Shown here: positions 20,590 to 46,704 of the stretch, piece after piece
How the letters are laid out: the number at the start of each line of letters is the position of its first letter
Numbering within the stretch: position 1 is the first letter of the stretch
Assembly: GCA_002245135.1 (NCBI GenBank)
Contig: NGBS01000001.1
Span: 558,001-604,704, forward strand
Source: Proteromonas lacertae
Lineage: Eukaryota
DNA: 46,704 nt
Reading direction: 5' to 3'
Notes under the pieces: model-generated
The model's input: only the letters and a program-made list of their open reading frames with translations
Database searches by the model: none
Told to the model about the DNA's origin: nothing
Made by a program: the position numbers and the translations under genes

Positions 20590-21639
20590 CTAATCTATGT
20601 GTAATTTAGTTGAAAGTACTTTAAATAACTCTTCAGCATCACTTGAAACAATAAAATTCCCACCAGGTAGCACTTCTTCATCTTTAATTCCATGATAATC
20701 GCTTCCTACAAACTTTAGTAAATTATACTTCTTTGCTTCTGGCATATATTCAGAACTCTTTCCATAACATTCCATTCCATCCAAAGAATGTCTAAATGCA
20801 ATAAATATAATAAATACTCAACTAAAGTTTTAATTATCTCCAATGGCTGTTTGTAACACCAAGGATGAGCTAAAACAACCAGTCCATTATGTTTATGAAC
20901 AAATTCAATAGCATCCAATGAATATAATGGTTTTGACATTGTTAAACTAATGTAATAAAGAAAGATAATAAATAGTTAATACTTCATTTTCCCTTCCCCT
21001 AAGTATTTATTAAATGCTTCTTGGAATGATGATATATATCCCTTTTCTAACATTGCTTTAGCTATATGTGGTCTACCTGGAGCTGCTTCTCCTGCTATTT
21101 CTATTACTCTTTCATAGGATATATCAACTCCTTGTTCTTTTAAACTATTCAATATATTCTTTGTTCTTAAATATCTAGCTTCTTGTAGTGTTTTGAAAAA
21201 TGTTTCGACTTTATCCAATTGATCAACTGGAAAGTAGCCAAGCATATGAACGCTTCCTTGTCCTGGAAATTCAGTAGACATTTCTAATCCTGGGATAACA
21301 TGTAATCCTAGTGATTTACCAACTTTTATTGCTTCTTTAACACCTTTTGTTGTATCATGGTCGGTAACAGCAACGTATTTCAAATGTCTTGAAAAACACA
21401 TTTTCAGAAGCTCTTCAACAGACAATATACCATCAGAGTTTTTAGTATGCATATGCAAATCAATAATTGCAGTCTATCAATCAAAATTATCTTGAATATT
21501 GAATACTTCATTATTTTCTCCTGTAGTTTCATTATCAGGATATCTAATCTGTATATTAATATATATACATATCCATTTCCCCAATAAAAGTCCCTATAGC
21601 TGTCATAATCACAACAATAATAAAAAGAAGTTTGAGCAT
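20590..21639 (-). CDS. PHP-domain metal-dependent phosphoesterase (TrpH/YciV family)
   Basis: DLHMHTKNSDG, AVTDHDT, GLEMST, VHMLGY, GRPHIA, VLAHP, GSDYHG; hydrophobic N-terminal exon MLKLLFIIVVIMTAIG. Confidence 0.88.
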
Positions 21640-25025: not shown

Positions 25026-27081
25026 TTAATGTGAAACTGATAATAATTCTATTGAAGTGTTTTGAGAATGTAATACAGCATATGAATATAGTGGAGAAGG
25101 TAAATCTTTAACAAGTAAAACAGGAGATGAATCATTATGACTTATCCAAAATTCTCTTTTATTCATATCAACAATCACTTCATAAATTGAACCATCTCCT
25201 ATGATTATTGAAATTTGGATCTAAATTAACAACTCTTCCAATATCACAATATGAAGTAATATCTTGACTTTCACCACCATATACCCAATAATTACATGTT
25301 GTTGATTGACTATAAATATTATATCCAGAATATGTATTATTAGTTGATAATCCTAACATCATTTCATCATAATAACTTCCATTTTGATGAAATTTATATT
25401 TAATATGATAAACTCCATTTTCCATTTCAAATTCAAATAACAATGATTATAACCATAACTTATTTTAGTATTTGTTATTATTTTTCCATTATTTGATATT
25501 GATATTTCATCACTTTTGTTTAATTCTGTGAATGTTATATCAACAAATTCTAATGAAATTCTGATTTTCTTTTCACTTCTTACATTCTTACAACTTATTT
25601 CATATTCTCTATTTTTGATTTCTTTATCTACTTTTCCATTAATTATTCCATTTTCTTTATTAATCATTAAACCATCTGGCAATGATGGATTAATTGAAAA
25701 TTCACATCGATTTCCATCAAATGATGGAATTATTGACATTTCTTCATAAATTGTAAATGAATATTCTGATTGAGGATATGAAAATGATGTGATTTCTTTT
25801 GTTTTTAATTCACTCAATAATTCTTTATCTTTCATTATTACAATCATTTCTTCTTCTTCTTCGAAACTCAGTTTATTCTCTTTTATATATTCTATTAATA
25901 ATTCTTTAGATTTGGAATTTAGATAATTATCTTCATTCAATATTCTAAAAAGAATTCCTTTTCCACATACTTCTTCTATTATTGAAATATCCTTTTTATC
26001 ATCAACAAACAAACATAAACATTTCATTGTTCGATTTCTTTTATTCTCATTATATTCTATACATAATCTATCCAATAGATTTCTCTTTTCTATATTTGAG
26101 ATATATTCTATTTAAATATATTTTTAGTATTTATACTTTCCTTTTTCATATTTTTATATTTCATTATCATCAATACTATTTCCGGTCATTTTTATATTAT
26201 TCATTTCTAATATAATCATTATTTCATCATTTAATTCTTCTTCTTCCATTTTATCCAATATTCTTCTTTCTTCTTCATTAAATACTTCTTCTTCATTATC
26301 TTCATTGTAATTATTCATTATTACATTTTGAATTCTATCATCTTTTATTAAATATATTTCTATATGATTTTTATATTCATTTTTCTTTAATTCTATTTTC
26401 ATTTCTTTTAACATTTCTTTATTCTCTTTTTCTATCTCTTTCTCTTTTATCTTTTCTACATCGATATCTTCTTCTATCAATTGTTTAAAATCATCTTGTA
26501 TCTCTTTATTATCATTGTTATTCTTTTGGAATTTATACCATTCTAATAATCGATTTAATAACCATAACTCATTCACTATTATCACATCTTTCATATTTAA
26601 TATCTCGATCAAATTATTCATTTCTAATCTCAACAAATATTCATTCTTATATAAATATTTATATCCTCGCTTTTCTATTTCCATATTTTTCAATTCTTCT
26701 ATCTCTCTCAAACATCCACCAAATACATTACATATATGAATTAATTTCATTAATACTTCATCATCTATATTATTCTTCACAAATTCATAACAATCATTTA
26801 TTATCTCTTTTTCAGAATAACATAAACAAAACATCAACACTTCACACACATTCTCTTTACAGATTATCAGTTCACCACCACTGTAGTATTTCTCCATCTC
26901 ATAATAGCCAATTTCTTCGATTTCTTCATATAACTCTAAAACTCCTACAAACTCACGATCTAACAACAGTTTCTTTACAGTTTCATTTCCATTCACTAAA
27001 ATTGATTTGATTGACATTATTCGATTATCTCTAATCTTCACTTCTATATCACCAAAACCACTTTCAACCAATTTTCGACAT
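25026..27081 (-). pseudogene. BTB/BACK-like + putative Ig + SPRY-like protein, frameshifted (pseudogene or assembly errors)
   Basis: N-terminal GFGDIEV..YYSGGELIICKENVCEVL (BTB-like), FSINPSLPDGLMINKENGIING (putative Ig repeat), C-terminal GDGSIYEVIVDMNKREFWI (SPRY-like); about four frame breaks. Confidence 0.6.
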
Positions 27082-27323
27082 AATCTATCATAAAAATAAA
27101 TATATTAAATACCCCTATTCTCTTATGCTTTTATTCACTTTTATTATCATCTTTATGTAAATATATAACAAAAATAACGAAATTAGATTTTTATCAAAAT
27201 TTTGAATAACCCAAAAATTAAAATGTGATTTAATTCAATTGCAGAATATGTGATAAAGACAATAATACTCTTATGTGATTTATTAATGCACATTGCATAT
27301 GTTTTGTTGATAGTAATTAGTAT

Positions 27324-28600: not shown

Positions 28601-28712
28601 ACATCAAAAATTATACAAATTCTGTCATTTGATTGGCTAAATTAGGCTTGATTTGTTTTGATTGAAAATTTATAATCCTTAATATCTCGCTTAATAGTCT
28701 TTAAACAATTGT

Positions 28713-31700
28713 ATGGAGGAGGAAAATGATAGTGAACCTGTAGTTTTACCTACAGGTGCAGGTGTGGGTGGAAGTACTGGTAGAAATGTTTTGTTCGCTA
28801 GATATAAACCTAGAAAAGGCGGTAATTACTTTAAAAATAATTCGGTATTTACTTCTGATAGATATTTTGGCGTGAAGAGACCCAGAGAAGAAAGCCGTGA
28901 TATTGATGATAATTCAAAAAGAATAAAGCCAGAAAATATTGATGATAGGAATATTTCAGGTAGAGGTGGAGATGAAGATGGAGATAGTTTTATGAAGATC
29001 ATCAACAATATCGCTGCAATTTATGCTGATGAAGATGATGAACATATTGAATTTTTAGACTTTACAAAAGCTGGATGTTGATGTATTTCAATTCCCCCTT
29101 AAAAAAATTTACATCAGAGATAAATATGAAACAATGTGTGATGATATATTTACCATTATTTCGCAACAAACTAAATACAATGTAATAATAACGGGTCAGC
29201 CAGGTATAGGTAAGACCTCTTTTATTTATTATTTATTATATAAATTAAAGAATAGTGGTGATTTAGAAACAGTAACTGGAGTGAGTAATTTATTTGTCGT
29301 AAAAGGTAAGAAATATGGAGATATTGTAAAAACAAAAGTATATAAATTAGAAAAAGATGGAAGTAATGGTTATAGTCTTACTCGATACACTGCTGGCATT
29401 TCTACAGTTGATGATTCTATAATAATTGTTGATACTTGTGATATAAAAATAAAAGGACGTAATAACAGAATTATCTCTATTAGTTCTCCAGACAGAGATA
29501 ATAATAAAAGATATACAGAGAATGATCAGGATATAGTTGAACTATATTTTGAATCATTAGAATTCGAAGAAGTTCAGAAATGGTTTGAGAATTGTATTGG
29601 TTTTGATTGTGTTGATGTTGAAAGTGAAGATTTTAAAGATGTGTGTGAAAGATATGGGTATATACCACGTTTAATATACTTCCATTATTTATATTATAAG
29701 AATTATAATGGTAGAGATTATTGGAAATATTATGAAAAACTGATAGATAGTGTAGTAGGAACAGAAGGTTATAATGACATTTTTAGAACATTATAAGAAT
29801 AAAGACTATTTGAAAGATACACCTTTATCAAATATCATATTAAAATATGATTTAGAAGAAGTAGATGATGTTCTTTTAGGACATAAAATATATAAACCCA
29901 AACAACATTTGAAATTTATATCAAAGTATGTTGAAGATTATATTCTTTATAATTTCTATCCTCCAAAAAGCAAAAGGGAATATAAAAAACTTAAAAAGAA
30001 TTACAAAAAGATAAGTGATGAGACTATGAAGAGAGTAGCAAAAAAGCAAATTATAGCATACAAATTAGCTAAAGTAAAAATTATAATAAACAAGAGAGAT
30101 AAATATTTTCAATTTAAGTCAACGAATGGAGAAGTCAATTTACTATCCAGAAGGTGCAAAGCACTTTCTTTATTTTATATTGGATAAAAATAATTATTTT
30201 GATTTTATTATGAATGGAGTATTTATAAAAATACAATTCAACAATGAATCGGTGGATGTGAATGATAATGAAACTAAAAGAAAAATGGTAGAATCAGTAA
30301 AAGTATTAACAATTTATATAATATATATAATATAATAGGAATATAATGAAAGTGAAAACTACAATTTTGTTTATTGTTTATTAAATGAAAAAGGAGAAGA
30401 TATTACTCCAAATACTGTAGAAGAAGAAGATCAAACTAATATTGATTATCATAAAATGACAGTATGCCAATTAAGAGATATCTTGTCAGAGATAAGATTA
30501 CCTAGATATGGAAAGAAGGAAGATTTAATCGAAAGATTGGAAAATGCACAAAAGAATCCATCATCGATAGAAGAAGAAGAACAAGAAGAAGAAGGAGGAG
30601 AAGAAGGAGAAGAAGAAGAAGGAGGAGGAGAAGAACAAGAACAAGAACATGAACAAGAAGGAGAAGGAGAAGGAGATAATACTAACAATGTAGTTGTACA
30701 ACAATCAATAGATCCACCTCCATTATATGAACTACCAAAAGGAGTGAATATAGAAGTATTTGCGATGAATAAAGAGGAAATATATTTAATGCGAGATTGT
30801 TATTAAGATATATTTACTACTATTTTCAATAATGGTTACAGTTTTTCTAATGAACATCAAAAGAACTACTTAATATTTGGTCATAAAAAAATTGGCAAAA
30901 CAGTCTTAGCTGATGTTTTAGAAAAACATATTCATAAAAATAATCCAGGTATTAAAATAAAAAGTATAAGTGATAAAGAAATGCAAGTTATGTCTAACAG
31001 TTATAGTAAACAACCATATATTGTAATTTCAGATGCAGAAGTAATTGGAGAAGATGATTATCCAGATGCAAAAATGATAATATTAATAGCTAATCCATCC
31101 AAAAAAGAGTATAAAACATTTCAAAGTAAAAGATGCCCTTTGGTGATGTATATACCTCCATTTACAAAAGAAGAAATTGAAAAAGTGATAATTCTGAAAC
31201 ATCCAAAATATAAATTATATCAAAATTATCCGAATTATTTTATGAATAAACGTGATGTAGATTTACATGTGAGAAAAATGGCAGTTATAGAAAAAGATTT
31301 AATAAATCCAACTCCAGTTTTTTTCAATACATTTATAAGGAACAATATGCCTAATATAAGTGATATAGATTCATTCATACAAAGTAAAGTAGGTGATTTT
31401 AATAAATACTTAAATGATAATAGGAGAGCAATACAATCGTTCATTAAGCAGAAGATAAACAGAATTTTGTCTTATAAATATAAAAAGGATAAAGTAGATT
31501 ATAGGAAAAACTACGAATTCTATGGTGGTGTAATAGGAAATAAAGGAAAAGGTGAAAAAGAAATAACAGATGAAGTTAAAAAAATTAAAACTGTAGAAGG
31601 TGTAATAAAAGGTATTAATGTATCATCATTATCGAAAAGTAAATACAATAACAAAATATTTATATATGAAACCAATGAAGATGATATTACTGAATCTAAT

Positions 31701-32432
31701 CATTTAACATTTATATCTGAAACAATAAGAACTATTGTGAATAGATCTTTATTTAAAATAAATAATAATACCGAATGTAAAAACAGGATAGATTTATTAT
31801 TTACAAATACAAATGAAGCTATAAAAGGATGTGTATATGAGAATGTAATATTTTATTTAATGAATGTAGATAGGGATTTTAGAAATTTAGTTTTTATGAG
31901 AATGTGTAGTGAAAACAGGATTTTGAAAGATACATATATAAATGCAATTGGTAGAAATGAAGAAGAAAAATATATAATAAAACAAGAATTCACAACAATT
32001 AGAAAAAAAATAAAATTAGTGAATGTAAAAAGAGATAGTGATATTAAACCAATAATAGAAGAAAGAGGGAAGATGAGATTGTTAGACTTCAGTTACAAGC
32101 CTAATTTTCCTGATATTGATGGGATGATTGGTCCTTTTGGTATTCAATTTACAATTAGTGATAAACATACTGTTTCAGCTGAGATAGTCAGAATATTACA
32201 ATGTGTATACAAACACTATAAGAATACTAATAGAAACATTACATTGACAAGTCCATTTGGTTTATACTTCATTAGTCCAAAAGATGAGGTTAGTATAGAA
32301 GAAGTAAAGGATAGAGGTATGATATTTTTTCCAGAATGGTTTAAAGGTTTTATTCCTAATAAATTAAGCGATGATGAAAAAAATGAATTAATGAAACTGG
32401 CATATGAATACAGTAAAAACTGTGTGTGTTGA
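28713..32432 (+). pseudogene. Crinkler/RHS-type protein: two P-loop NTPase modules, central SAP domain, C-terminal restriction-endonuclease-like domain; reading frame disrupted
   Basis: Module 1: IYIRDKY, IITGQPGIGKTSF, SSPD, YGYIPR. SAP: MTVCQLRDILSEIRLPRYGKKEDLIERL. Module 2: YLMRDCY, FGHKKIGKT, MYIPPFTKEEI, YGG, KGCVYE, NFPDIDG..IQFTISDKH. Frameshifts near 29090, 29785 and 30150; in-frame TAA at 30804-30806. Confidence 0.72.
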
Positions 32433-37258: not shown

Positions 37259-39193
37259 GTTGCTGGCTGTATTTCTATAGTTTCATATTCTACTTCAGGA
37301 ATAGGTAAAGAGAGTGAAGTAAATGGATCAAATATATCAGAAACATTACCACAAGGACAAACCAAGTGTGATTTATACATTCCACAGAATAAGTCAGATA
37401 TAACACTCTTATTTCTCTTCTCATAATTTTCCCATGACATTTCAGCTAGTGTTTCAATAGGAATAGTGTTATTAGGATTCTCAATTGCTGGTACATATGG
37501 TTTAACCAATATTTTATTCAAATCTTCATGTAATCCATCTAATAAATAAGACATAAATTCATGTGAATCTTGTTGTTCATAACCTGCAAATCTTGGACAA
37601 TGTTTACTTAATGCTGTCTTAAAATTATCAGGTGAATATGACTTATTATCTACATTCCACATATGATGTAGTACTTCAATATAAGCTCTTGTTAAGTCTC
37701 CATTCGTACCTAATGGATTGTCAATATTAATATCAGTTTCTTTGAAGTTCTCTAAGAAGTATTCTGTTAATGGTTTACAACTACTGATACATTGTAACAT
37801 TGAATTCATAAAACATGTATTTCCTAAGTTATATAATCCAATTACTCCTCTTTCATATTCTCGTGGTTCATTTCTATGGTAATTTCTATTATGATTATAT
37901 AATGATGATGATGATGATGATGACGAGCTAAAGTTTGGTTTTGGACTACTACTTGGAGTATTATTGGCTGAACAATTGTTACTTTTATTGATCTTTTTAC
38001 ATTTTCTTGAATCTATGAAAATAATAATAACATTATATATACAAGGTGGAAATAAATGTTCATAATCATTCTTTTTTACAGTAACTATTTCATCACATAT
38101 TTTTAACTCTAAACTATCATTAATTATATGTTCAATAGTTGCAACTGTTGTATATTCTTTTCCTTTATATAATATTTCATCTCCTATTTTATAATTAGTA
38201 AATTGAGGAGTAAAATAAAACAATGGTTGAATCCTTTCTTCTATTTCTTCCTTCTTACTAAATAAATAATAAATACATATAAATCAATACATTGTTTCAT
38301 TGCAAAAATCTTTAAAACCAAAAAAATGAACTATCAATCCATCATCATTCGTTTTTCCAACAATTTGTCCGTTATACCAATGTTTCTTTGAATCCATTAC
38401 ATCACAGATTAAATTAACTTGTACTGTTTTGAAGAAATCATTCAGTATTTCTTTTTCTTTAGATAAATCTGATTTTTCTATTACAACTTCTGAATAATCG
38501 TGATTCATCTTGGCACTGAATGTCTCGTCTATTTCGAAGGGTGTTAATGGCGATTTTCGAAAATACATTATGAATGGTTCTTCTACTTGAAATCTATATG
38601 AATATGATGATATATATATGAAATATACTGATTCTTAACTCTTTCTTTCAATTCATTGTATTCAGTGAATTCTTTTACTTGTATTTCTCCTACTATTTTT
38701 GATAATACGAAATTTTCTCTTATGTACACCTATATAACAAATAAGACAATTGATACTCTAAAAATTGCTGGATAATAGATTATAGCAGGATTGTTAGATC
38801 CTTTTTCAGTATCAGTATATCTTACAAGAGGAGTCTGAGGTCCTCCATACCAACTAACCAATTTCAAATATGCTGTTTCTGATAGAGCCTTAGTTAGCTA
38901 TAATGTTATTAATAAAGTCATTCATACAAATTCTCTTTTTATATGACCATCAGTATCTTTACATTTACATGTTACTGGCTATATAATAGATAAACATAAC
39001 AATACCCCTGGATTTGCCAATAATTTGTTTTGTACGTAATCTTTCCATTTCTTAAGCCAATCCTCATCAACGATATACCTATCACACTGTAAAAATCATG
39101 TAAATACCATTTTTCATTCACTGCCTTAGGCTTCTCATTTAAAAGTGGAAAAATAACGTCTCTTTGAGTAGTTCTACTTGGTGTTGATGACAT
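35619..39193 (-). CDS. Ubiquitin C-terminal hydrolase, USP4/11/15-like (DUSP + peptidase C19)
   Basis: GLYNLGNTCFMNSMLQC (Cys box), QQDSHEF, DGLHEDLN, WYCNKCKK, LPEILILHIKRF, GHYTA His box, AYVLFY. Confidence 0.93.
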
Positions 39194-39421
39194 TCTATTA
39201 AAAAAAAATAATCTCAAGCCAAACTATTTTTTGATATTTCAATCTTCTTTTTCTCATGTAAAAATTGAAAACACAATATTATGATATGTTAGCTGTATTT
39301 AACAAGTTATGTACTTAAATGCGGCATTTCATTTATGGTCTTTGACACACATTCCAAGCAAAAATTCACAAAATAATAAAATTAATATCAAAACTATATA
39401 ATATGAGGAATCTAGTTGAAA

Positions 39422-39796
39422 TTAATTAGCACCACTTACTGTAGGCTTGTCTTTGTTTAAGTAACCCATATGATTCTTTTTAAACTCTTCTTTACTTAAA
39501 TCGGTAAATTTATTAACACCCATTTTGAATGATACATCTTTTTTAGCATTGTGAGTTTCTATTTTATCAAGATTCTCTGAGAAGATCTCAAGACGTTTTC
39601 TACACATTAAAATATCACCATATTAATATACATACTTTTCTTCCTCAGCATCAGCATAACTTCTGTGATACTCTTTTTTAAATTCTTCAAATTTGTCTAC
39701 ATAATACTTTTGTTCATGTAAACGAGCTTCTTCAGCTTTGACAAACACAGCAACAAAAGCTAAGAATAAACAGATGGATAAGAGAGTTGTTTTCAT
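39422..39796 (-). CDS. Stand-alone cathepsin-propeptide (I29) inhibitor, secreted
   Basis: Signal peptide MKTTLLSICLFLAFVAVF, FEEFKKEYHRSY, ERFNIN-like RLEIFSENLDKIETHN, GVNKFTDLSKEEF, then stop; no peptidase domain follows. Confidence 0.8.
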
Positions 39797-39870
39797 TTAA
39801 TAGTAAGTTTAAAAAACTTGGCTTGATAGATTTTTAGATTCGTGTTTTCTCGTTAAATAAACTTAATTTT

Positions 39871-40299
39871 TGCACAATATACATTGATATGATATATGTA
39901 TAACCGTAAGAATATCACTGTATGTGGGTAAACCGTACCAGACTATTCTTAGGTGCCTTCTACAGGTAAGAATAAGCGATTTGAGTGTGAATTAGTTTTT
40001 GGTACGGGTTATACTGGAGCAAGCGGTGAATTTAAAATTGTGTATATATTTTAGTGTATGAGTAATTTTATGGGTTAAAATTTATTTTTATGTTTTTAAT
40101 AGTTTGTAGTGTAGGATAGTAGAAATAAAGTGTATAAATAGAAAGGTAGCTACCTGTTCTACCCCGGCAGGGTAGCTACTTTATATAATAAGAAATGTAT
40201 TTCTATGTAAGTAAGTAGCGTGTCCTGTGTAGCCTAGCTAGGACTTAGTGATTAAATAGTGTGGTGGCCAAGCTACAGAATACGTTCTTACTTTTTTTT
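39871..40299. repeat. Cluster of nested inverted repeats and palindromes at the left end of the viral element
   Basis: TGCACAAT/ATTGTGTA, CCGTACCA/TGGTACGG, TATTCTTA/TAAGAATA, GGTAGCTAC x2, CCTAGCTAGG, AGTAAG/CTTACT followed by T8. Confidence 0.75.
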
Positions 40300-40532
40300 A
40301 GTTATTTTTTTCATTTATCAAATTAATAATGGATTTATATAGTGTAGTTAAAAACATTCAAAAGAATTTAAATAGTATCAAAAATATATATTTAAAGAAT
40401 TATCTGCAGTATTCTATATTTTTTAATAAATCGAAATTCTGACGAGAAACTGTTGTTATAAACAGAAAAAAGAAACAGTTTTGATTTTCCTGATATTTTA
40501 GAAAAACCGTTTTTATCAAAAAAATATAAAAT

Positions 40533-41012
40533 ATGTGTGCTTCAGTAAACTTTGCTTTCTTTTGTTCATTTAGAAATAATGAAGATTATTTAGATAAGTG
40601 TATATGTGGAACATGTAAGTTTTACTTATATTTTAACCATAATATAAGTGCAGTTTTAGATAGTCCATTACCTAAGGAAGAGATAAAGTCTTATAATGAA
40701 TTCTGTGCTATTTGTCATCAAAAGATGTGGACAAAGTACAGTGATAAGAGATATTACATGATGCTTTTCGATATTAAACCATCAGTAAAACCAAGAGGAT
40801 TAAATAGACATTATTTTGCAGTGTTTGATAAGTATATTGAATGGTTAACACTACCTGAAGGAATGGGAAGTGTTCATTTGAAGAAGAATCCTATGTTGAA
40901 ACATTATGTAAAGAAGAATTATATATTTGATGATAGTGATGATGATGAGGAAGAAGAAGCACAAGAAGAAGTTAAAGGAAACAATGATCAAACTACGATA
41001 AACATACTCTAA
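40533..41012 (+). CDS. Viral ORFan with putative Zn-binding Cys pairs and acidic tail
   Basis: 159-aa intronless ORF with CICGTC and CAICH. Confidence 0.6.
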   Translation: MCASVNFAFFCSFRNNEDYLDKCICGTCKFYLYFNHNISAVLDSPLPKEEIKSYNEFCAICHQKMWTKYSDKRYYMMLFDIKPSVKPRGLNRHYFAVFDKYIEWLTLPEGMGSVHLKKNPMLKHYVKKNYIFDDSDDDEEEEAQEEVKGNNDQTTINIL

Positions 41013-41147
41013 ATTTTAAAACGAATCTTTATCTTAAAATGATTTGGGACAGGGTTTAAAAATATGCGTAATTTAATAAAAATCATATAATATAATAAAA
41101 ATATAATAAATTTTATAATAAACATAATAAAATAATCATAATAAAGA

Positions 41148-41934
41148 TTAAAATGGTTCTGTAACACCTGTATCCATCCACTCTGTTATAATAACTTGAG
41201 GTGGGAATGCTTGATATGAATATGCATCAAGACCTTTTCGTTCTATATAAAGATTACATTTATTATTATTATTTCTTAATATAGGCCAAAAACATCCATA
41301 ATCATTAATTGCAGGTTGTGAAGTTTCATTTATTACACCTTGTATAGGGAAGTATATTCCATTACTACCATCTACAAAGTATGTTTCTAATAATTTGTTA
41401 TAATATTGTTGCAATAAATCTTCTTTACCTGGTTCAGCTTTAATAACATGATTGTCATCTAGATATAATATAAATCCATAACCATCATCATGATTTTTTA
41501 AAACAAGGCCATTGTATATCTTGATTCTCATAAAATGTTCAAACATTTGAATTTTTATAGGTACTTTTACAGTAGATTCATATTGATTGATCGAACCATC
41601 TTGAAATATATAGAAATTAACTGACCAATATGTATATTCAGTATGCAATAATTTAGGTGATACAGAATTATTAACTATTGTAGTACTACCTCCAGAGCTA
41701 TTATTTACAACATTATATATTTCTTGACATTTACCATATATAGTATTTGTAGTAGTTTTGATATCATTAACAGGTGTAATAATATTATTTATTTGAGTAG
41801 TCAGTATGATTATTAATAGGTTTAACAATAGTATCAGGATCAGTAGGTTGTATATTTATTTTGTCAGCTATATCTTTAGCAAGCTTATCTGTATCAATAT
41901 TTATATCTGAAGTATTTCGTTCCCCAATAAACAT
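41148..41934 (-). CDS. Viral ORFan, possible virion fibre/spike protein (frame break near 41790)
   Basis: ATG at 41934 (MFIGERN) overlaps the out-of-frame ORF 41148-41828; N/T/S-rich stalk-like start, beta-rich aromatic C-terminus; co-oriented with the capsid genes. Confidence 0.5.
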
Positions 41935-41978
41935 TTTTTGAATTAATAAACAATAAAATAACAAAATTAATAAAAACA

Positions 41979-42739
41979 TCAAGAAACTTCAGAATGATCT
42001 TCAATCAAAATATTAAAGTTAGCTCTAAACACTTTTTTAACATTATCAATATATAAGAAGTTATATTGTGGCTTAGTAACAGCTAAATATAACTCTTTAA
42101 ATGTTTCATATTCAGGTATCCATATATTCAATGAGTTGTATAAGTCAAACAAATTTCTATTACTCAATCCATAAAATGTTAAACAATAATCTACTTGTGA
42201 TCTTGCTGAAGGTACTATATCAGTAATATATTGACTACTAATTATAATTTTGATTTTAAATGTCTATTTTCTTTCATTAATACTGGTATGATATTAGCTG
42301 TTTTCAACTCTAAACTAAGATCATCAAATATTATAATATGTTCTGCATACTCAAAATTATCTTTGTTTGTATCATCAATTGATTTCATTAACTTCTCTAC
42401 TAAATTATCTCCTGAATAAGGTTCAAATAATGAATCGTTTTCATCATAACTAATTTCATTATAATCTAATAACTCTTTAATTGAATCATATATCCTATCT
42501 TGTTTAATTGTACCTACGAAAAAATGTACATGTTGTTTTTTCTTATATTTTGGATCTATAATATGTCTTAATATATTGTATATCAAAGTAGTTTTCCCAC
42601 TGTTCTTACGAGCTACAATAAATATATTGCAGAAAGGCTCATTAAAGTAATCATATCCCAGAATTTTCTTAGGATCAAAAGACTCACCACCATCAACAGG
42701 TTCAATTTGTATATTATTTATTTTTTCAAATTTAAACAT
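41979..42739 (-). CDS. A32-like (FtsK/HerA) viral DNA-packaging ATPase, one 1-nt frameshift near 42248
   Basis: Walker A IVARKNSGKTT, Walker B IIIFDDL; restoring one A gives RHLKSKIIISSQYITDIVPSARSQVDY and joins ORF 41979-42167 (KPQYNFLYID). Confidence 0.88.
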
Positions 42740-42809
42740 AGTGTGTGTATATATTATGTAGTGAGAAATCAAAAAATAAAAATAGAAGTCAATAATAAAG
42801 TATTATTAC

Positions 42810-44228
42810 TTATACTACCTTTTCAACACCTCTTGGTCCAATAATCAATTGTTTACCAGTAATTATGTAGAACTTATGATGAATTGTATATGGATTATGA
42901 TTAGCATCAAATCGTTGATTTGAGCAATCCAAAGTAATTTTTAAATCACTTGCTAAGTCTTTACCAGCTCTTAATTTTAATTCAGTTAATCGATCAGTAC
43001 TGAAATTTAGAACATCAAAAAATGAATTGGGAAATGATAATGTATTACATTTATCAAATATTGTATTTTGAATAATATTTCTCATATATTCCCATGTCTG
43101 ATATTTTGCAGGATATAAATAATCAGGTGTATAAACGAAATCATTAATTTGCCATCTTATTCTATCTTGATCTTGATCAAAAGGAATAGTATCTCTATTA
43201 TATGCATCATTATAATATGCTCTGTATAATATATATTTAACATAACTTCCTATGCTACTATTAATACTGAAGTTATAGTTAAAAGTATTACTACCTGGAA
43301 TTGGATCTTTAGTGATTTGAACTATATTAAAGTCAGTAAAGTCAATAGGATGATGAGTTGAATAATTAATGGTATTAGCATTACATGTTGGATCTTTATT
43401 GTAACAAATGTAAAGTCTAGGATTAATAATTTTCATTCCTACATGCTGTTGCCATGAATTAATCCAAACAGAACCATTGCTATGATGAATCCAATTCATT
43501 ATAGGAGCAAATGTGAATTGAATATAAATGACTTCACCAAAATAAATATCATTCTTCAAAGCTAATATGGTATTATAGAAATCTGCAAAATGAAATCTAC
43601 AGTATAGTTTTCCATGTAATATATCTTCTGTTGTTCCCATTTCTTCCCAATAATTCCAAACACCTCCATTTGCATTTAAAGTAGAATTAGAATTACATAT
43701 AGTTGTTTCAGCTATTTTATTATTTCTAATGCGTAAGCCATCAAATAAATATTCATAATAATGATAATCTTTTATATCATAAGGATACTGGTTAGCAATT
43801 TGATGAGCTAAATCTCGATATTCATTATAACTACTATCTAAATCACATAGAAGTGTTCCAGTTTTATTGTATACTTTGATAGTTCCAAAATTCATTGAAT
43901 TCCTTAAATTTATATGATCTAACATTTTACCAGTAGTAGAATCAGTTACAGGTGTAATAGGTAATTTCCATTGTCCTTTACCTGCATCTGCATGATCTCT
44001 TTTTTGACCTGTAGTATAATCTAATTCAAATTCAAAGTAACTTTTAGATAGATTAACACAATTATCACCAGATATTTCAAATGTAATAGCATCACTGTTT
44101 GAATTTAAAGATAAAACAGTCTCATTTCTGCTTTGGTTAGGTGTAACTAAAATATGATTGTAGACAGGTATATAAGCTGGCACAATGCTTTCATGTTTTT
44201 GTGAATTAGGTACAGCAGTGATTGACAT
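42810..44228 (-). CDS. Major capsid protein, double jelly-roll (PLV/virophage type)
   Basis: 472-aa beta-rich ORF with N-terminal ITFEISGDNCVNLSKSYFEFEL pattern typical of PLV capsids; lies between the minor capsid and ATPase genes. Confidence 0.8.
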   Translation of the reverse strand: MSITAVPNSQKHESIVPAYIPVYNHILVTPNQSRNETVLSLNSNSDAITFEISGDNCVNLSKSYFEFELDYTTGQKRDHADAGKGQWKLPITPVTDSTTGKMLDHINLRNSMNFGTIKVYNKTGTLLCDLDSSYNEYRDLAHQIANQYPYDIKDYHYYEYLFDGLRIRNNKIAETTICNSNSTLNANGGVWNYWEEMGTTEDILHGKLYCRFHFADFYNTILALKNDIYFGEVIYIQFTFAPIMNWIHHSNGSVWINSWQQHVGMKIINPRLYICYNKDPTCNANTINYSTHHPIDFTDFNIVQITKDPIPGSNTFNYNFSINSSIGSYVKYILYRAYYNDAYNRDTIPFDQDQDRIRWQINDFVYTPDYLYPAKYQTWEYMRNIIQNTIFDKCNTLSFPNSFFDVLNFSTDRLTELKLRAGKDLASDLKITLDCSNQRFDANHNPYTIHHKFYIITGKQLIIGPRGVEKVV

Positions 44229-44282
44229 ATTTTATGTTATTTTTTAAAAATCAAAAAATGCTTAAAAATAGCAAGAAATTTA

Positions 44283-45254
44283 TTAATACAAAATAATCTC
44301 AAAATAAATAGGTAAGTTATTTAAATCAATTGCATAACCATCTTGTTGAGAGACTGATATATTCATTCGTTGATATTCGTGATATTGCATCTTTTTAGTT
44401 GTCCATTCAATTTGTGGATTAGTGAATGTAGTATAATCTGCATTTATATCAGTTACAGGTATATTTGCTAAAACCATTGAATTCTCACCACTATTAACCC
44501 AGTCACATCTAATTTGTATGAATGACACCCATAGTAAAGAAGGCTGATTTGGTAACAAATTAGAATAATAATTAAAATCTTTACTGAAATATGCATCACT
44601 TAAATGATTTGCATGATAAATTGATATACTTTTATTTATTTCATCTAAACCAAATAACTTATATGCTAAGTTAGGGAATTCCATACTAAAATCTGTAAAG
44701 TAATATTTTCCGAAATGAGTAATATAATTAAATTGTAACTTTAATCTATTTTCTGAAGTTTTTTCAAATTGAAGTACATCTGTTTGATCATCTACTTTAT
44801 GAAATGGAAATCTATTTGCAAAATCTTCATCAGGTAATGGTTCCACTCCATTATCAAATGCATAAAAAGTAAAACTTAAGAGATTTCTAGCAAAATAATC
44901 TAATAATTCTTTTCCTGTATATTTTCTTTGAGGTATTTTAATATCAATAGTTTTATTATAAGGTCCATTTTGGTTTTCAGGGTATGCCCATTTTATTGGA
45001 TTTGTTTCATCTGGATTAATGCAGCTATAATAAGTAAAATTAAAGAGTATATGATCATTTACTTCATCTTGTACTGTATAGAAGTTATTTGGAATAACTG
45101 CAGTAATTAAACTCATATATTGATATTTTTCAGTTATAGTTGGAGTATTAATACATCTTGTCCATCTATTTGAAAATTTTGAATCATAGTCTGATGTAGT
45201 TAAGAACAATGATCTTCTATTATTTATAACATTATTACTATCTTTAGGTTGCAT
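44283..45254 (-). CDS. Minor capsid (penton) protein, single jelly-roll
   Basis: LITAVIPNNFYTV, IKIPQRKYTGKEL, IQIRCDWV..VLANIPV, ISVSQQDGYAIDLNNLPIYFEI: the motif order of Polinton/virophage pentons. Confidence 0.82.
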   Translation of the reverse strand: MQPKDSNNVINNRRSLFLTTSDYDSKFSNRWTRCINTPTITEKYQYMSLITAVIPNNFYTVQDEVNDHILFNFTYYSCINPDETNPIKWAYPENQNGPYNKTIDIKIPQRKYTGKELLDYFARNLLSFTFYAFDNGVEPLPDEDFANRFPFHKVDDQTDVLQFEKTSENRLKLQFNYITHFGKYYFTDFSMEFPNLAYKLFGLDEINKSISIYHANHLSDAYFSKDFNYYSNLLPNQPSLLWVSFIQIRCDWVNSGENSMVLANIPVTDINADYTTFTNPQIEWTTKKMQYHEYQRMNISVSQQDGYAIDLNNLPIYFEIILY

Positions 45255-45333
45255 TATGTTTTATAATTGTTGAGAAATATTAAAATATTATTTTATTTGA
45301 ATTATTCTTTAATTTATATATCGTTATATATAT

Positions 45334-46704
45334 ATGCAACCACAACCACAAGTTAACAATTCAAATGATGAAGAAGATGAACCAACAGATGATGATTATG
45401 AATATGAAGAAGATGAAGATAATGTACCTATTGATATGAACAGAATAAGACATAGAAGAAGACATAGAAGGAATCAAGTCATACCATTTCAAGATATAAG
45501 CGAAGATGATTTGAATAACTATGTGAATCAAGAAGTGAAAAGATTTAACAAAACATTGATTATGCAATATAGACTGATTCCTGTAGGTTGGCCAAATCAT
45601 GAGTTTAATAGAATATATAATTTATATGATGAACATATGAAAATGTTTAATTGGTGTAAGAATTTATTTGTAACAGGTCCTTTTGCACATGGTAAACCAT
45701 TAGAAGCTTATAATCCAAAATTAGCAGGAAATGAAAATTCTGCTAATGCAAGAGAATGTGGAATATTTAAAACTCGCATAGCAGATGGTATTGATAAATT
45801 GTGTATGGCATCTGATTTTATATTACAAAGAAATCCATTTGTTGTTTTACACCCAAAAGAGAGAATAGGTGTTACACAACTAGAAAATAGAAGAATTAAA
45901 AAAACTCATTATGAAATTGATGAAAGACATCCAGAACCAGAAAATGATTTTAACATAATGAATAATGAACATTATAATAGTGCAGCTGAAATAAGAGCGG
46001 AAAATGTTATGCAAAATAGACATGATAATATGGTAAGAGGAGTATTAGTAAATGCAGACAATGGAAGTAATGATAATAACAATAATAACAACAATGGAAA
46101 TAATAACAATGATAATAATGAAAATAATAACAATGCAAATTATGATATAATTAGCTTTTGCGATTCTCTGAAAGATAAGATAAAGTTCTACATAGGTCGT
46201 TTAATGAGAACTAAATTTTGGTATTTAACAAATCAAAAAGAAGAAACAGCTTATTCAATTGCATTAATCATATACAACTGTGTAACTGATTTGTATATAT
46301 TAGCTTTATATTACATACCAATATTAAAAGATAAGTAAGTGGTAATTATCAAAATGATAATGAATATACTTTACCATATCATCCTGATAGAAGAAATTTT
46401 ATGGATTACCAGATGGTGATAATAGAAACAGATATAGATATAACTATTTAGCAACTATACAAAAAATATTAACAGAAGCGCATGTACCACAAGGTCAAAT
46501 CAATACAAATATATTTGCTAATCCTATAACTTTTAGAATGAATAGAGCTTTAGATACGCAACTTAACCGTCAAATTAAACATAGAAGATCAGTTCCAGCT
46601 TATGTTGGAATGAATGTTGCAGATCATAGAAATTGGAGATATGTTGCACCAGCTAATTATCCTCCTGCTCATCCATCAATTACTGCAGATTTGATTGATA
46701 GAAA
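45334..46704 (+). CDS. Large viral ORFan, probably continuing past the window end
   Basis: 334-aa ORF to 46338; coding-like sequence continues after apparent 1-nt shifts near 46335 and 46400 (GLPDGDNRNRYRYNYL...) and stays open to 46704. Confidence 0.55.

What the first reader, a model, noticed from the sequence alone, without database searches (positions are those of the whole stretch)
39871..46704. Endogenous Polinton-like/virophage-like DNA virus in a compact protist genome
Seen: intron-rich host genes stop at ~39.8 kb and give way to intronless ORFs, with a co-directional module of penton (323 aa), major capsid (472 aa), packaging ATPase and a fibre-like ORFan. Established: this morphogenesis trio defines Preplasmiviricota elements (Polintons, PLVs, virophages). 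Inference: the capsid length fits a PLV better than a classical virophage; both capsid ORFs are intact, so the insertion may be recent or reactivatable; the proteins look divergent and may mark an uncharacterised lineage infecting a gut stramenopile. No pPolB, integrase or protease is in view.
Basis: partly seen in the sequence, partly recalled or inferred. Interest (0 to 1): 0.9.

Follow-up and report, generated by a model that had tools for sequence, protein, structure and literature searches.

The report
Polinton-like virus in gut protist genome
The last 7 kb of this sequence carry the capsid-building genes of a small DNA virus, likely a Polinton-like virus integrated in the chromosome of a gut-dwelling protist; its capsid appears to belong to a family already catalogued in the protist Proteromonas, and its DNA-packaging gene is frameshifted as assembled, so this copy would likely need help from sister copies.

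Summary
The viral module is real. [quoted passage not shown] The 323-aa ORF is a probable penton. The ATPase belongs to the A32/FtsK packaging family. The 'fibre-like' ORF and the last ORF also lie in two frames, and 'fibre' found no support. 'Reactivatable' is therefore unsupported unless these breaks are assembly errors (about even odds). The lineage is not uncharted: by eye, the capsid matches the Proteromonas lacertae cluster of Bellas et al. 2023 (285 capsid-gene hits; 36 of 50 residues identical over four motifs). Close relatives otherwise came only from unnamed Logan assemblies. GC (26.4%) and codon usage match the intron-bearing host genes, which fits an Opalinata-like host. The junction, terminal repeats, copy number, replication genes and expression could not be tested: no genome is held, no runs were listed, and the sequence ends inside the element. 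Verdict: a new member of a known kind, interest 0.35.

The parts
39422..39796 (-). Last host gene: signal-peptide-like N-terminus plus cathepsin propeptide inhibitor (I29) domain, one 36-nt intron (39,600-39,635); points away from the element and is not interrupted by it
   Evidence: Pfam I29 E 2.3e-14 on exon 2; three-frame translation; intron test
39871..40532 (.). Non-coding probable left end of the element (candidate terminal-repeat region); exact boundary not determined
   Evidence: G-rich + strand at 39,901-40,300 (22-23 G per 100 nt vs 5-16 in the flanking bins); ssDNA fold of 39,860-40,300 z -2.63, 1 of 100 shuffles as good; no second end in the window, so a TIR is untested
40142..40182 (.). 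Imperfect hairpin with ~15-nt arms inside the probable terminal region
   Evidence: Sequence and predicted fold; the 24 pattern matches in IMG/VR encode no relative of the element's protein families
40533..41012 (+). 159-aa intronless ORFan, Cys-rich N-terminus (possible zinc finger), acidic tail
   Evidence: only sub-threshold zinc-finger Pfam hits, E 0.07-0.22
41148..41979 (-).
   Evidence: no GT-AG intron explains the change; no family or PDB match
41979..42739 (-). A32/FtsK-HerA-type genome-packaging ATPase gene, broken by a frame change in a short A-run near 42,245-42,260; Walker A and B are in the first part, the conserved C-terminal motifs in the second
   Evidence: The halves match residues 1-165 (90%) and 168-253 (93%) of continuous 254-aa P0162; relative P0164 passes Pfam Pox_A32 (23.6 bits vs cut-off 22.8); the family profile hits STIV B204 packaging ATPase, E 5e-5
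42810..44228 (-). [quoted passage not shown]
   Evidence: AF2 pLDDT 85.7, pTM 0.86; Foldseek PDB E 4e-12 to Sputnik and iridovirus MCPs; VIA Z 23.8, rmsd 3.8, 349 aligned to a PBCV-1 capsid chain; 7 relatives at 39-75%
44283..45254 (-). Probable penton (minor capsid protein), 323 aa, intact
   Evidence: Partial model, pLDDT 65; the top 6 of 48,161 chains are all varidnaviral capsid or capsid-derived chains, incl. mavirus penton (Z 3.9-6.7); one family member hits Pfam Adeno_Penton_B, E 0.0024; 6 relatives at 36-59%
45334..46338 (+). 334-aa intronless ORFan with acidic N-terminus and an Asn run; divergent from the capsid module
   Evidence: no significant family hit; no relative in viral contigs
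46350..46704 (+). Last ORF, in two frames (change near 46,390), cut by the end of the sequence; start approximate
   Evidence: Three-frame translation; no family hit

Best explanation
This is likely the left 6.8 kb of an integrated Polinton-like virus in the nuclear genome of a likely Opalinata (Proteromonas/Blastocystis-type) gut stramenopile: it encodes a protein predicted to be a double-jelly-roll major capsid, a probable penton and an A32-type packaging ATPase whose gene is frameshifted as assembled. Inferred mechanism: MCP trimers and penton pentamers would build a small icosahedral capsid, and the ATPase would pump the linear genome in. Replication and integration genes would lie beyond 46,704, and the element would have entered an intergenic site about 75-100 bp upstream of a host gene. 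As written, the ATPase ends after Walker B and lacks its C-terminal third, so this copy could not package itself. It would be a recently decaying copy complemented by sister copies, unless the three frame changes are assembly indels in a multi-copy repeat (about even odds). Shown: the ORFs, the predicted DJR fold, the ATPase family and the frame changes. Inferred: penton identity (moderate), integration, host lineage, membership of the Proteromonas MCP cluster (eye comparison) and all life-cycle steps.
For: DJR fold with full-length match to DJR capsids. Penton model's best matches are all capsid or capsid-derived chains. ATPase family. Compact co-directional penton-MCP-ATPase-ORFan order, with the ATPase stop overlapping the next ATG. 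Relatives appear to travel together: 5 of 12 members of one penton cluster share their longest-contig length with an MCP relative (9425, 5898, 5312, 4850, 3110 nt), and one MCP and one ATPase relative share 10,216 nt (linkage inferred from lengths). The MCP and 12 closest relatives form one side of a long branch (SH-aLRT 100, quick tree) against 26 distant PLV-sized proteins. The P. lacertae MCP printed in PMC10120064 Table S3 shares, in order, 10/12, 9/15, 12/16 and 5/7 residues with window MCP residues 55-66, 218-232, 316-331 and 358-364 (by eye). Same GC and codon usage as the host genes. Host GC 26.4% versus 27.0% for P. lacertae and 21.5-23.1% for tortoise Blastocystis.
Against: The junction is untested: no genome is held and there were no reads to lay. 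No TIR pair, target-site duplication, integrase or replicase is in view, so integration and class rest on inference. The penton Z-scores (max 6.7) are under the tool's caution level of 8, and its jelly-roll core was poorly modelled. BFVD gave no penton match at E<=0.001. There is no GC step at the boundary. The Proteromonas comparison is by eye on a cell cut at 400 of 450 residues, with no computed alignment. Host lineage was not tested phylogenetically.
Confidence: 0.75

Rival explanations
1. Same element, but intact and potentially active: the three frame changes are sequencing or polishing indels in a multi-copy repeat, and the real provirus has a whole ATPase.
For: Both ATPase halves stay 90-93% identical to a continuous relative. 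No in-frame stops apart from those after the frame changes. Two of the three changes lie at short homopolymer runs. The sequence ends inside the element, as expected where a repeat breaks an assembly.
Against: The ORFan break is not at a clear homopolymer. Published PLV-rich genomes contain decaying fragments (10.64898/2026.07.28.741278, section 5). All 9 host-gene junctions checked had a candidate GT-AG intron (permissive test), so indels do not look pervasive in this assembly.
Confidence: 0.4
2. A Polinton/MELD-type virus with pPolB and RVE integrase, such as the Blastocystis MELD virus of Starrett et al. 2021, with those genes beyond the contig end.
For: PMC8502044 section 3.4 describes Blastocystis hominis datasets with a MELD virus that unites adintovirus-like PolB and integrase with virion proteins not recognisably similar to known ones. 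That fits a divergent capsid in an Opalinata host.
Against: Not comparable here: that sequence could not be obtained (the supplement search gave no 'Blastocystis' hit). The one BFVD entry labelled 'MELD virus sp.' among the 50 listed is only 12% identical. The Halocafeteria preprint calls the Proteromonas elements PLVs.
Confidence: 0.3
3. A chimeric join: a free or co-sampled virus contig misassembled onto a host contig.
For: The junction could not be checked with reads. Relatives occur on short unnamed Logan contigs (longest contigs 1-10 kb).
Against: GC, GC3 and codon usage are host-like. The join falls in a non-coding stretch next to an intact host gene start, with a terminal-looking G-rich hairpin region rather than a mid-gene break. 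Frameshifts in an essential gene fit an integrated copy. The related family is reported at 285 MCP hits in one host genome.
Confidence: 0.1
4. A classical virophage (Maveriviricetes) provirus.
For: Sputnik MCP ties for the best Foldseek E-value. Mavirus and Sputnik chains are among the top penton matches. Endogenous virophages are known in Bigyra.
Against: No sequence-level match of the 130-sequence MCP profile to any PDB chain at E<=10, although Sputnik and mavirus MCP structures exist in the PDB. By VIA, virophage MCPs (Z 17-19) rank below NCLDV MCPs (Z 21-24). The Proteromonas cluster is tabulated outside the virophage columns.
Confidence: 0.05

Closest known systems
Endogenous PLV MCP cluster of Proteromonas lacertae (Bellas et al. 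2023, PMC10120064, Tables S3 and S4: 285 MCP hits in one cluster, confirmed there by ColabFold and Foldseek)
   Same: Same MCP motifs in the same order (36 of 50 residues identical over four motifs, by eye); similar length (450 vs 472 aa; up to 509 listed); best solved-structure match PBCV-1 capsid in both; AT-rich host.
   Different: The printed representative differs clearly from this MCP outside the motifs. My 'Proteromonas' + 'Polinton' search listed only one paper, which mentions the group in passing. The published gene maps are pictures and were not seen.
Blastocystis MELD virus (Starrett et al. 2021, PMC8502044)
   Same: Divergent virion genes in a gut-stramenopile dataset.
   Different: Defined there by pPolB and integrase, which are not in view here; sequences could not be compared.
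Endogenous PLVs of Halocafeteria seosinensis (10.64898/2026.07.28.741278)
   Same: Bigyra host; MCP, mCP and ATPase module; fragments and decaying copies occur.
   Different: Their MCPs are reported as a cluster distinct from those of Proteromonas; they show a GC contrast with the host (34% vs 47%), which is absent here.
Virophages (Maveriviricetes: mavirus, Sputnik)
   Same: DJR MCP, penton, A32-like ATPase; integrate in Bigyra hosts.
   Different: No sequence-level MCP similarity found; no Ulp1-type protease in view.

Membership tests
Preplasmiviricota-type morphogenesis module | [quoted passage not shown] | tested here: met
   pLDDT 85.7 model; VIA Z 23.8, rmsd 3.8, 349 aligned, residues 8-472; 186 PDB matches at E<=0.001
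Preplasmiviricota-type morphogenesis module | Single-jelly-roll minor capsid (penton) protein | tested here: inconclusive
   The top 6 VIA matches are capsid or capsid-derived chains incl. mavirus penton, but Z 3.9-6.7 and only residues ~57-244 were well modelled; one of 7 family members hits Adeno_Penton_B at E 0.0024; adjacent to the MCP
Preplasmiviricota-type morphogenesis module | FtsK/HerA (A32-like) packaging ATPase | tested here: met
   An 81%-identical relative passes Pfam Pox_A32; the profile hits STIV B204. The window's own gene is frame-shifted
Polinton-like viruses (definition in PMC11071308, Introduction) | Mostly lack pPolB and RVE integrase; other replicases, sometimes a tyrosine recombinase | not testable with these tools
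   The sequence ends at 46,704 inside the element; no genome; no close relative with DNA context found
Endogenous PLV/Polinton | Terminal inverted repeats and target-site duplication | not testable with these tools
   Only one end is in view; a G-rich hairpin region is suggestive
Endogenous PLV/Polinton | Covalent host-virus junction supported by reads | not testable with these tools
   No runs available to lay; host-like composition is only indirect
Proteromonas lacertae MCP cluster (Bellas 2023) | At least 25% identity over 30% of length to the cluster (criterion) | tested here: inconclusive
   Eye comparison only: 36 of 50 residues identical in four ordered motifs; no computed alignment
Polintoviricetes (Polintons, MELD/adintovirus type) | pPolB plus RVE integrase plus Ulp1-type protease | not testable with these tools
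   None in the 6.8 kb in view; the rest is missing
Maveriviricetes (virophages) | MCP orthologous to virophage MCPs | tested here: inconclusive
   No PDB sequence hit at E<=10; fold matches shared with all DJR capsids; no reference tree with virophage MCPs was built
Maveriviricetes (virophages) | Ulp1-type maturation protease | not testable with these tools
   Not in view; element truncated

The most novel reading that the evidence does not exclude
This is a chromosomal copy of a still-active PLV clade specific to anaerobic gut stramenopiles, sitting in a Blastocystis-type host rather than Proteromonas, with the frame changes being assembly errors. Bellas et al. list no MCP count for the 10 Blastocystis assemblies seen in Table S1. 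Many intact relatives in unnamed public assemblies (ATPases 81-90% identical and continuous; MCP clusters of up to 19 members) would mark a widespread virus of the commonest gut eukaryote and might point to an undiscovered helper giant virus.
Probability: 0.2. Interest if true: 0.65.

Novelty: new member of a known kind. Interest (0 to 1): 0.35.

Why it matters
Endogenous PLVs are common in protists: over 35,000 MCP hits in 462 genomes (PMC10120064). One more truncated copy is ordinary. What adds some value is the clade. It is a long-branching capsid family whose only named member I found is in a reptile-gut stramenopile, and its other close members are unnamed public assemblies. It may be the DNA virus lineage of Opalinata, possibly including Blastocystis, and its replication mode, helper dependence and host range were not described in the papers I searched. 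The host-matched GC and codon usage mean GC-based screens would miss it.

Tried and rejected
No whole genome is held, so copy number and extension were not possible. The look-up of sequencing runs listed no run and no RNA holder; this is no evidence either way, and no reads could be laid. DNA context for relatives: none in viral contigs, none in metagenome contigs with the MCP profile, one distant 1.1-kb ATPase fragment at 34% (L001), none in prokaryote genomes and none in phages. The ESM Atlas gave no answer for the MCP or two homologues. Pfam has no model that hits this MCP family: 0 of 12 relatives scanned gave a capsid family. A profile search of PDB sequences with the penton alignment gave nothing significant. 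An intron as the cause of the ATPase break was rejected: only 2 residues separate the matched halves in relatives, so the single 52-nt candidate would delete conserved sequence. A programmed -1 frameshift was considered and not favoured, because four close relatives are simply continuous. No Rfam match at 39,000-46,704. No second copy of the viral gene families in 1-39,800 (0 hits with 217 proteins). The hairpin pattern gave 24 IMG/VR loci, none encoding relatives. The Blastocystis downstream motif (recalled) occurs only 6 times on both strands, which does not settle the host. The MCP tree is the quick version (the careful search did not finish), uses 39 rows chosen from my hits and holds no named references. 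Earlier findings of this scan: nothing for this genome or sequence; one search listed unrelated windows only. No complex prediction was run.
Full report
Observation. The window is AT-rich throughout. From 1 to about 39.8 kb it carries eukaryotic genes: kinesin, DEAH helicase, MyTH4, FCP1-type phosphatase, bromodomain, ankyrin and ubiquitin protease. Their frames change at short GT-AG introns (9 of 9 junctions checked had a candidate of 25-70 nt, a permissive test). The last host gene starts at 39,796 on the minus strand and has a 36-nt intron. From 40,533 on, the ORFs are intronless and tightly packed: 159 aa (+); then on the minus strand 323 aa, 472 aa, an ATPase and an ORFan; then 334 aa (+) and an ORF cut by the sequence end. 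Intron-like motifs drop from 1.46 to 0.48 per kb. Shuffles never gave a stop-free frame above 136 codons in 200 tries.

Major capsid protein. No Pfam, PHROGs, NCBIfam or PDB sequence hit. Seven relatives at 39-75% identity, all from Logan assemblies. A profile of these found 257 proteins at E<=0.001, of which 150 were listed, most 430-510 aa long. Folding with 129 relatives of 400-540 aa gave pLDDT 85.7 and pTM 0.86. Foldseek's listed PDB matches are all DJR capsids: Sputnik and iridovirus at E 4e-12, PBCV-1, mavirus, faustovirus and PRD1. VIA gave Z 23.8, rmsd 3.8 A over 349 residues to a PBCV-1 chain. Identities are 4-13%, so the fold identifies a capsid but not a class. In a quick tree of 39 rows, the window MCP and 12 relatives form one side of a long branch with SH-aLRT 100 (no named references).

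Penton. Six relatives at 36-59%. With only 7 sequences the model was partial (pLDDT 65; ends under 50). Against 48,161 chains the top six were PBCV-1 capsid (Z 6.7, rmsd 4.1, 120 aligned), an adenovirus-derived ADDobody (5.8), EhV-201 capsid (5.8), aviadenovirus capsid (5.7), mavirus penton (4.8) and Sputnik (3.9). These Z-values are modest, and BFVD gave nothing at E<=0.001. One member hits Adeno_Penton_B at E 0.0024. With its position next to the MCP, penton is probable but not proven.

ATPase. The ORF from 42,739 stops after 165 codons. Ten relatives were found; the closest full-length ones are continuous 254-aa proteins. tblastn maps residues 1-165 of P0162 to 42,739-42,245 (90%) and residues 168-253 to 42,239-41,982 (93%) in a different frame. 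P0164 passes the Pfam Pox_A32 cut-off, and the family profile hits the STIV B204 packaging ATPase. So the gene is a packaging ATPase, broken as assembled in a short A-run. The downstream ORFan and the last ORF also lie in two frames. An intron cannot explain the ATPase or ORFan breaks. Three frame changes and no other in-frame stops fit either recent decay or indel errors in a multi-copy repeat; without reads I put this at about even odds. The label 'fibre' found no support and the protein was not folded.

Integration and host. No genome is held and no run was listed, so the junction is untested. Indirect support: GC is 26.4% on both sides, GC3 is 13-23% in element ORFs and 12-19% in host ORFs, and codon usage does not separate element from host. 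The join lies in non-coding DNA about 75-100 bp upstream of an intact host start codon. It is followed by a 400-nt G-rich stretch with a hairpin (fold z -2.63) that may be a terminal repeat, but only one end is in view. The host lineage is inferred. GC is close to P. lacertae (27.0%) and above tortoise Blastocystis (21.5-23.1%) (PMC12129017 section 5). Intron-like motifs are mostly 30-44 nt; Blastocystis ST7 introns are about 32 nt (PMC3129679 passages) and longer and more variable in tortoise isolates. I did not place the host phylogenetically.

How it most likely works. By established knowledge of DJR viruses (recalled; classes as defined in PMC11071308, Introduction), MCP trimers and penton pentamers form a 40-80 nm icosahedron, and an A32-type ATPase fills it with linear DNA. 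The element would persist as a provirus copied with the host chromosome, with replicase and integrase beyond the contig end. This copy, as assembled, lacks the C-terminal third of the ATPase and would depend on sister copies for packaging. Matching longest-contig lengths suggest that the genes travel together in relatives: MCP and penton in 5 of 12 members of one penton cluster, MCP and ATPase once. Whether it needs a giant-virus helper is unknown.

Comparison with what is known. Bellas et al. 2023 (PMC10120064; I read sections 5, 6 and 9, passages, rows of Tables S1, S3 and S4 from a file cut when stored, and only the labels of Dataset S1) report 285 MCP hits in one cluster in Proteromonas lacertae. 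The cluster is listed among their iterative-search clusters rather than under virophage or named PLV groups, and the count is blank for the 10 Blastocystis assemblies shown. Their printed representative shares 10/12, 9/15, 12/16 and 5/7 residues with window MCP positions 55-66, 218-232, 316-331 and 358-364, in order (by eye; no computed alignment). A 2026 preprint (10.64898/2026.07.28.741278; passages and section 5) refers to these as known PLVs. Starrett et al. (PMC8502044; section 3.4 and passages; supplement search without a hit) describe a Blastocystis MELD virus with pPolB, integrase and unrecognisable virion genes; whether it is the same lineage remains open. Passages of 10.1101/2022.05.25.493380 and 10.1101/2024.03.23.586382 added nothing on this family. 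Searches for Blastocystis with polinton, virophage or endogenous viral plus major capsid protein, and for Proteromonas with polinton or capsid terms, listed no paper devoted to this lineage. Subscription journals, figure panels and bioRxiv supplements were not visible and may hold more.

Verdict. A real viral capsid module, probably an integrated PLV, in a family that seems already catalogued but little described. The suggestion of reactivation is undercut by the broken ATPase, and the novelty was overstated. New member of a known kind; interest 0.35.

Noticed in passing
window 28,698-32,429 (+): Two tandem intron-poor genes with P-loop NTPase motifs (weak Pfam nSTAND3 and RNA_helicase hits) and a SAP domain between them. 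From memory they resemble Crinkler/RHS-type NTPase-nuclease families. The first lies in three frames, with changes near 29,070 and 29,780.
   Followed up: partly
window 39,422-39,796 (-): A cathepsin-like gene that ends right after the I29 propeptide domain; no papain catalytic domain follows before the next gene. It may be a stand-alone secreted protease inhibitor or a truncated gene.
   Followed up: partly
window 25,362-27,104 (-): A gene combining a BTB/BACK-like region (recalled; no Pfam hit at E<=0.001) with a putative Ig (He_PIG) domain. Ig-domain adhesin candidates are mentioned for Blastocystis ST7.
   Followed up: no
window 20,979-21,473 (-): PHP-domain phosphoesterase that looks bacterial in type; a possible lateral transfer into the host.
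   Followed up: no
P0162 vs P0001-P0003, P0008: The nearest ATPase relative is 90% identical, whereas the best full-length MCP and penton relatives are only 52% and 59% identical. This suggests fast capsid evolution or module swapping.
   Followed up: no
L001 1-1095: A JGI contig with a distant ATPase of this family next to a 130-aa ORF that looks like a small penton-type protein (by eye).
   Followed up: no
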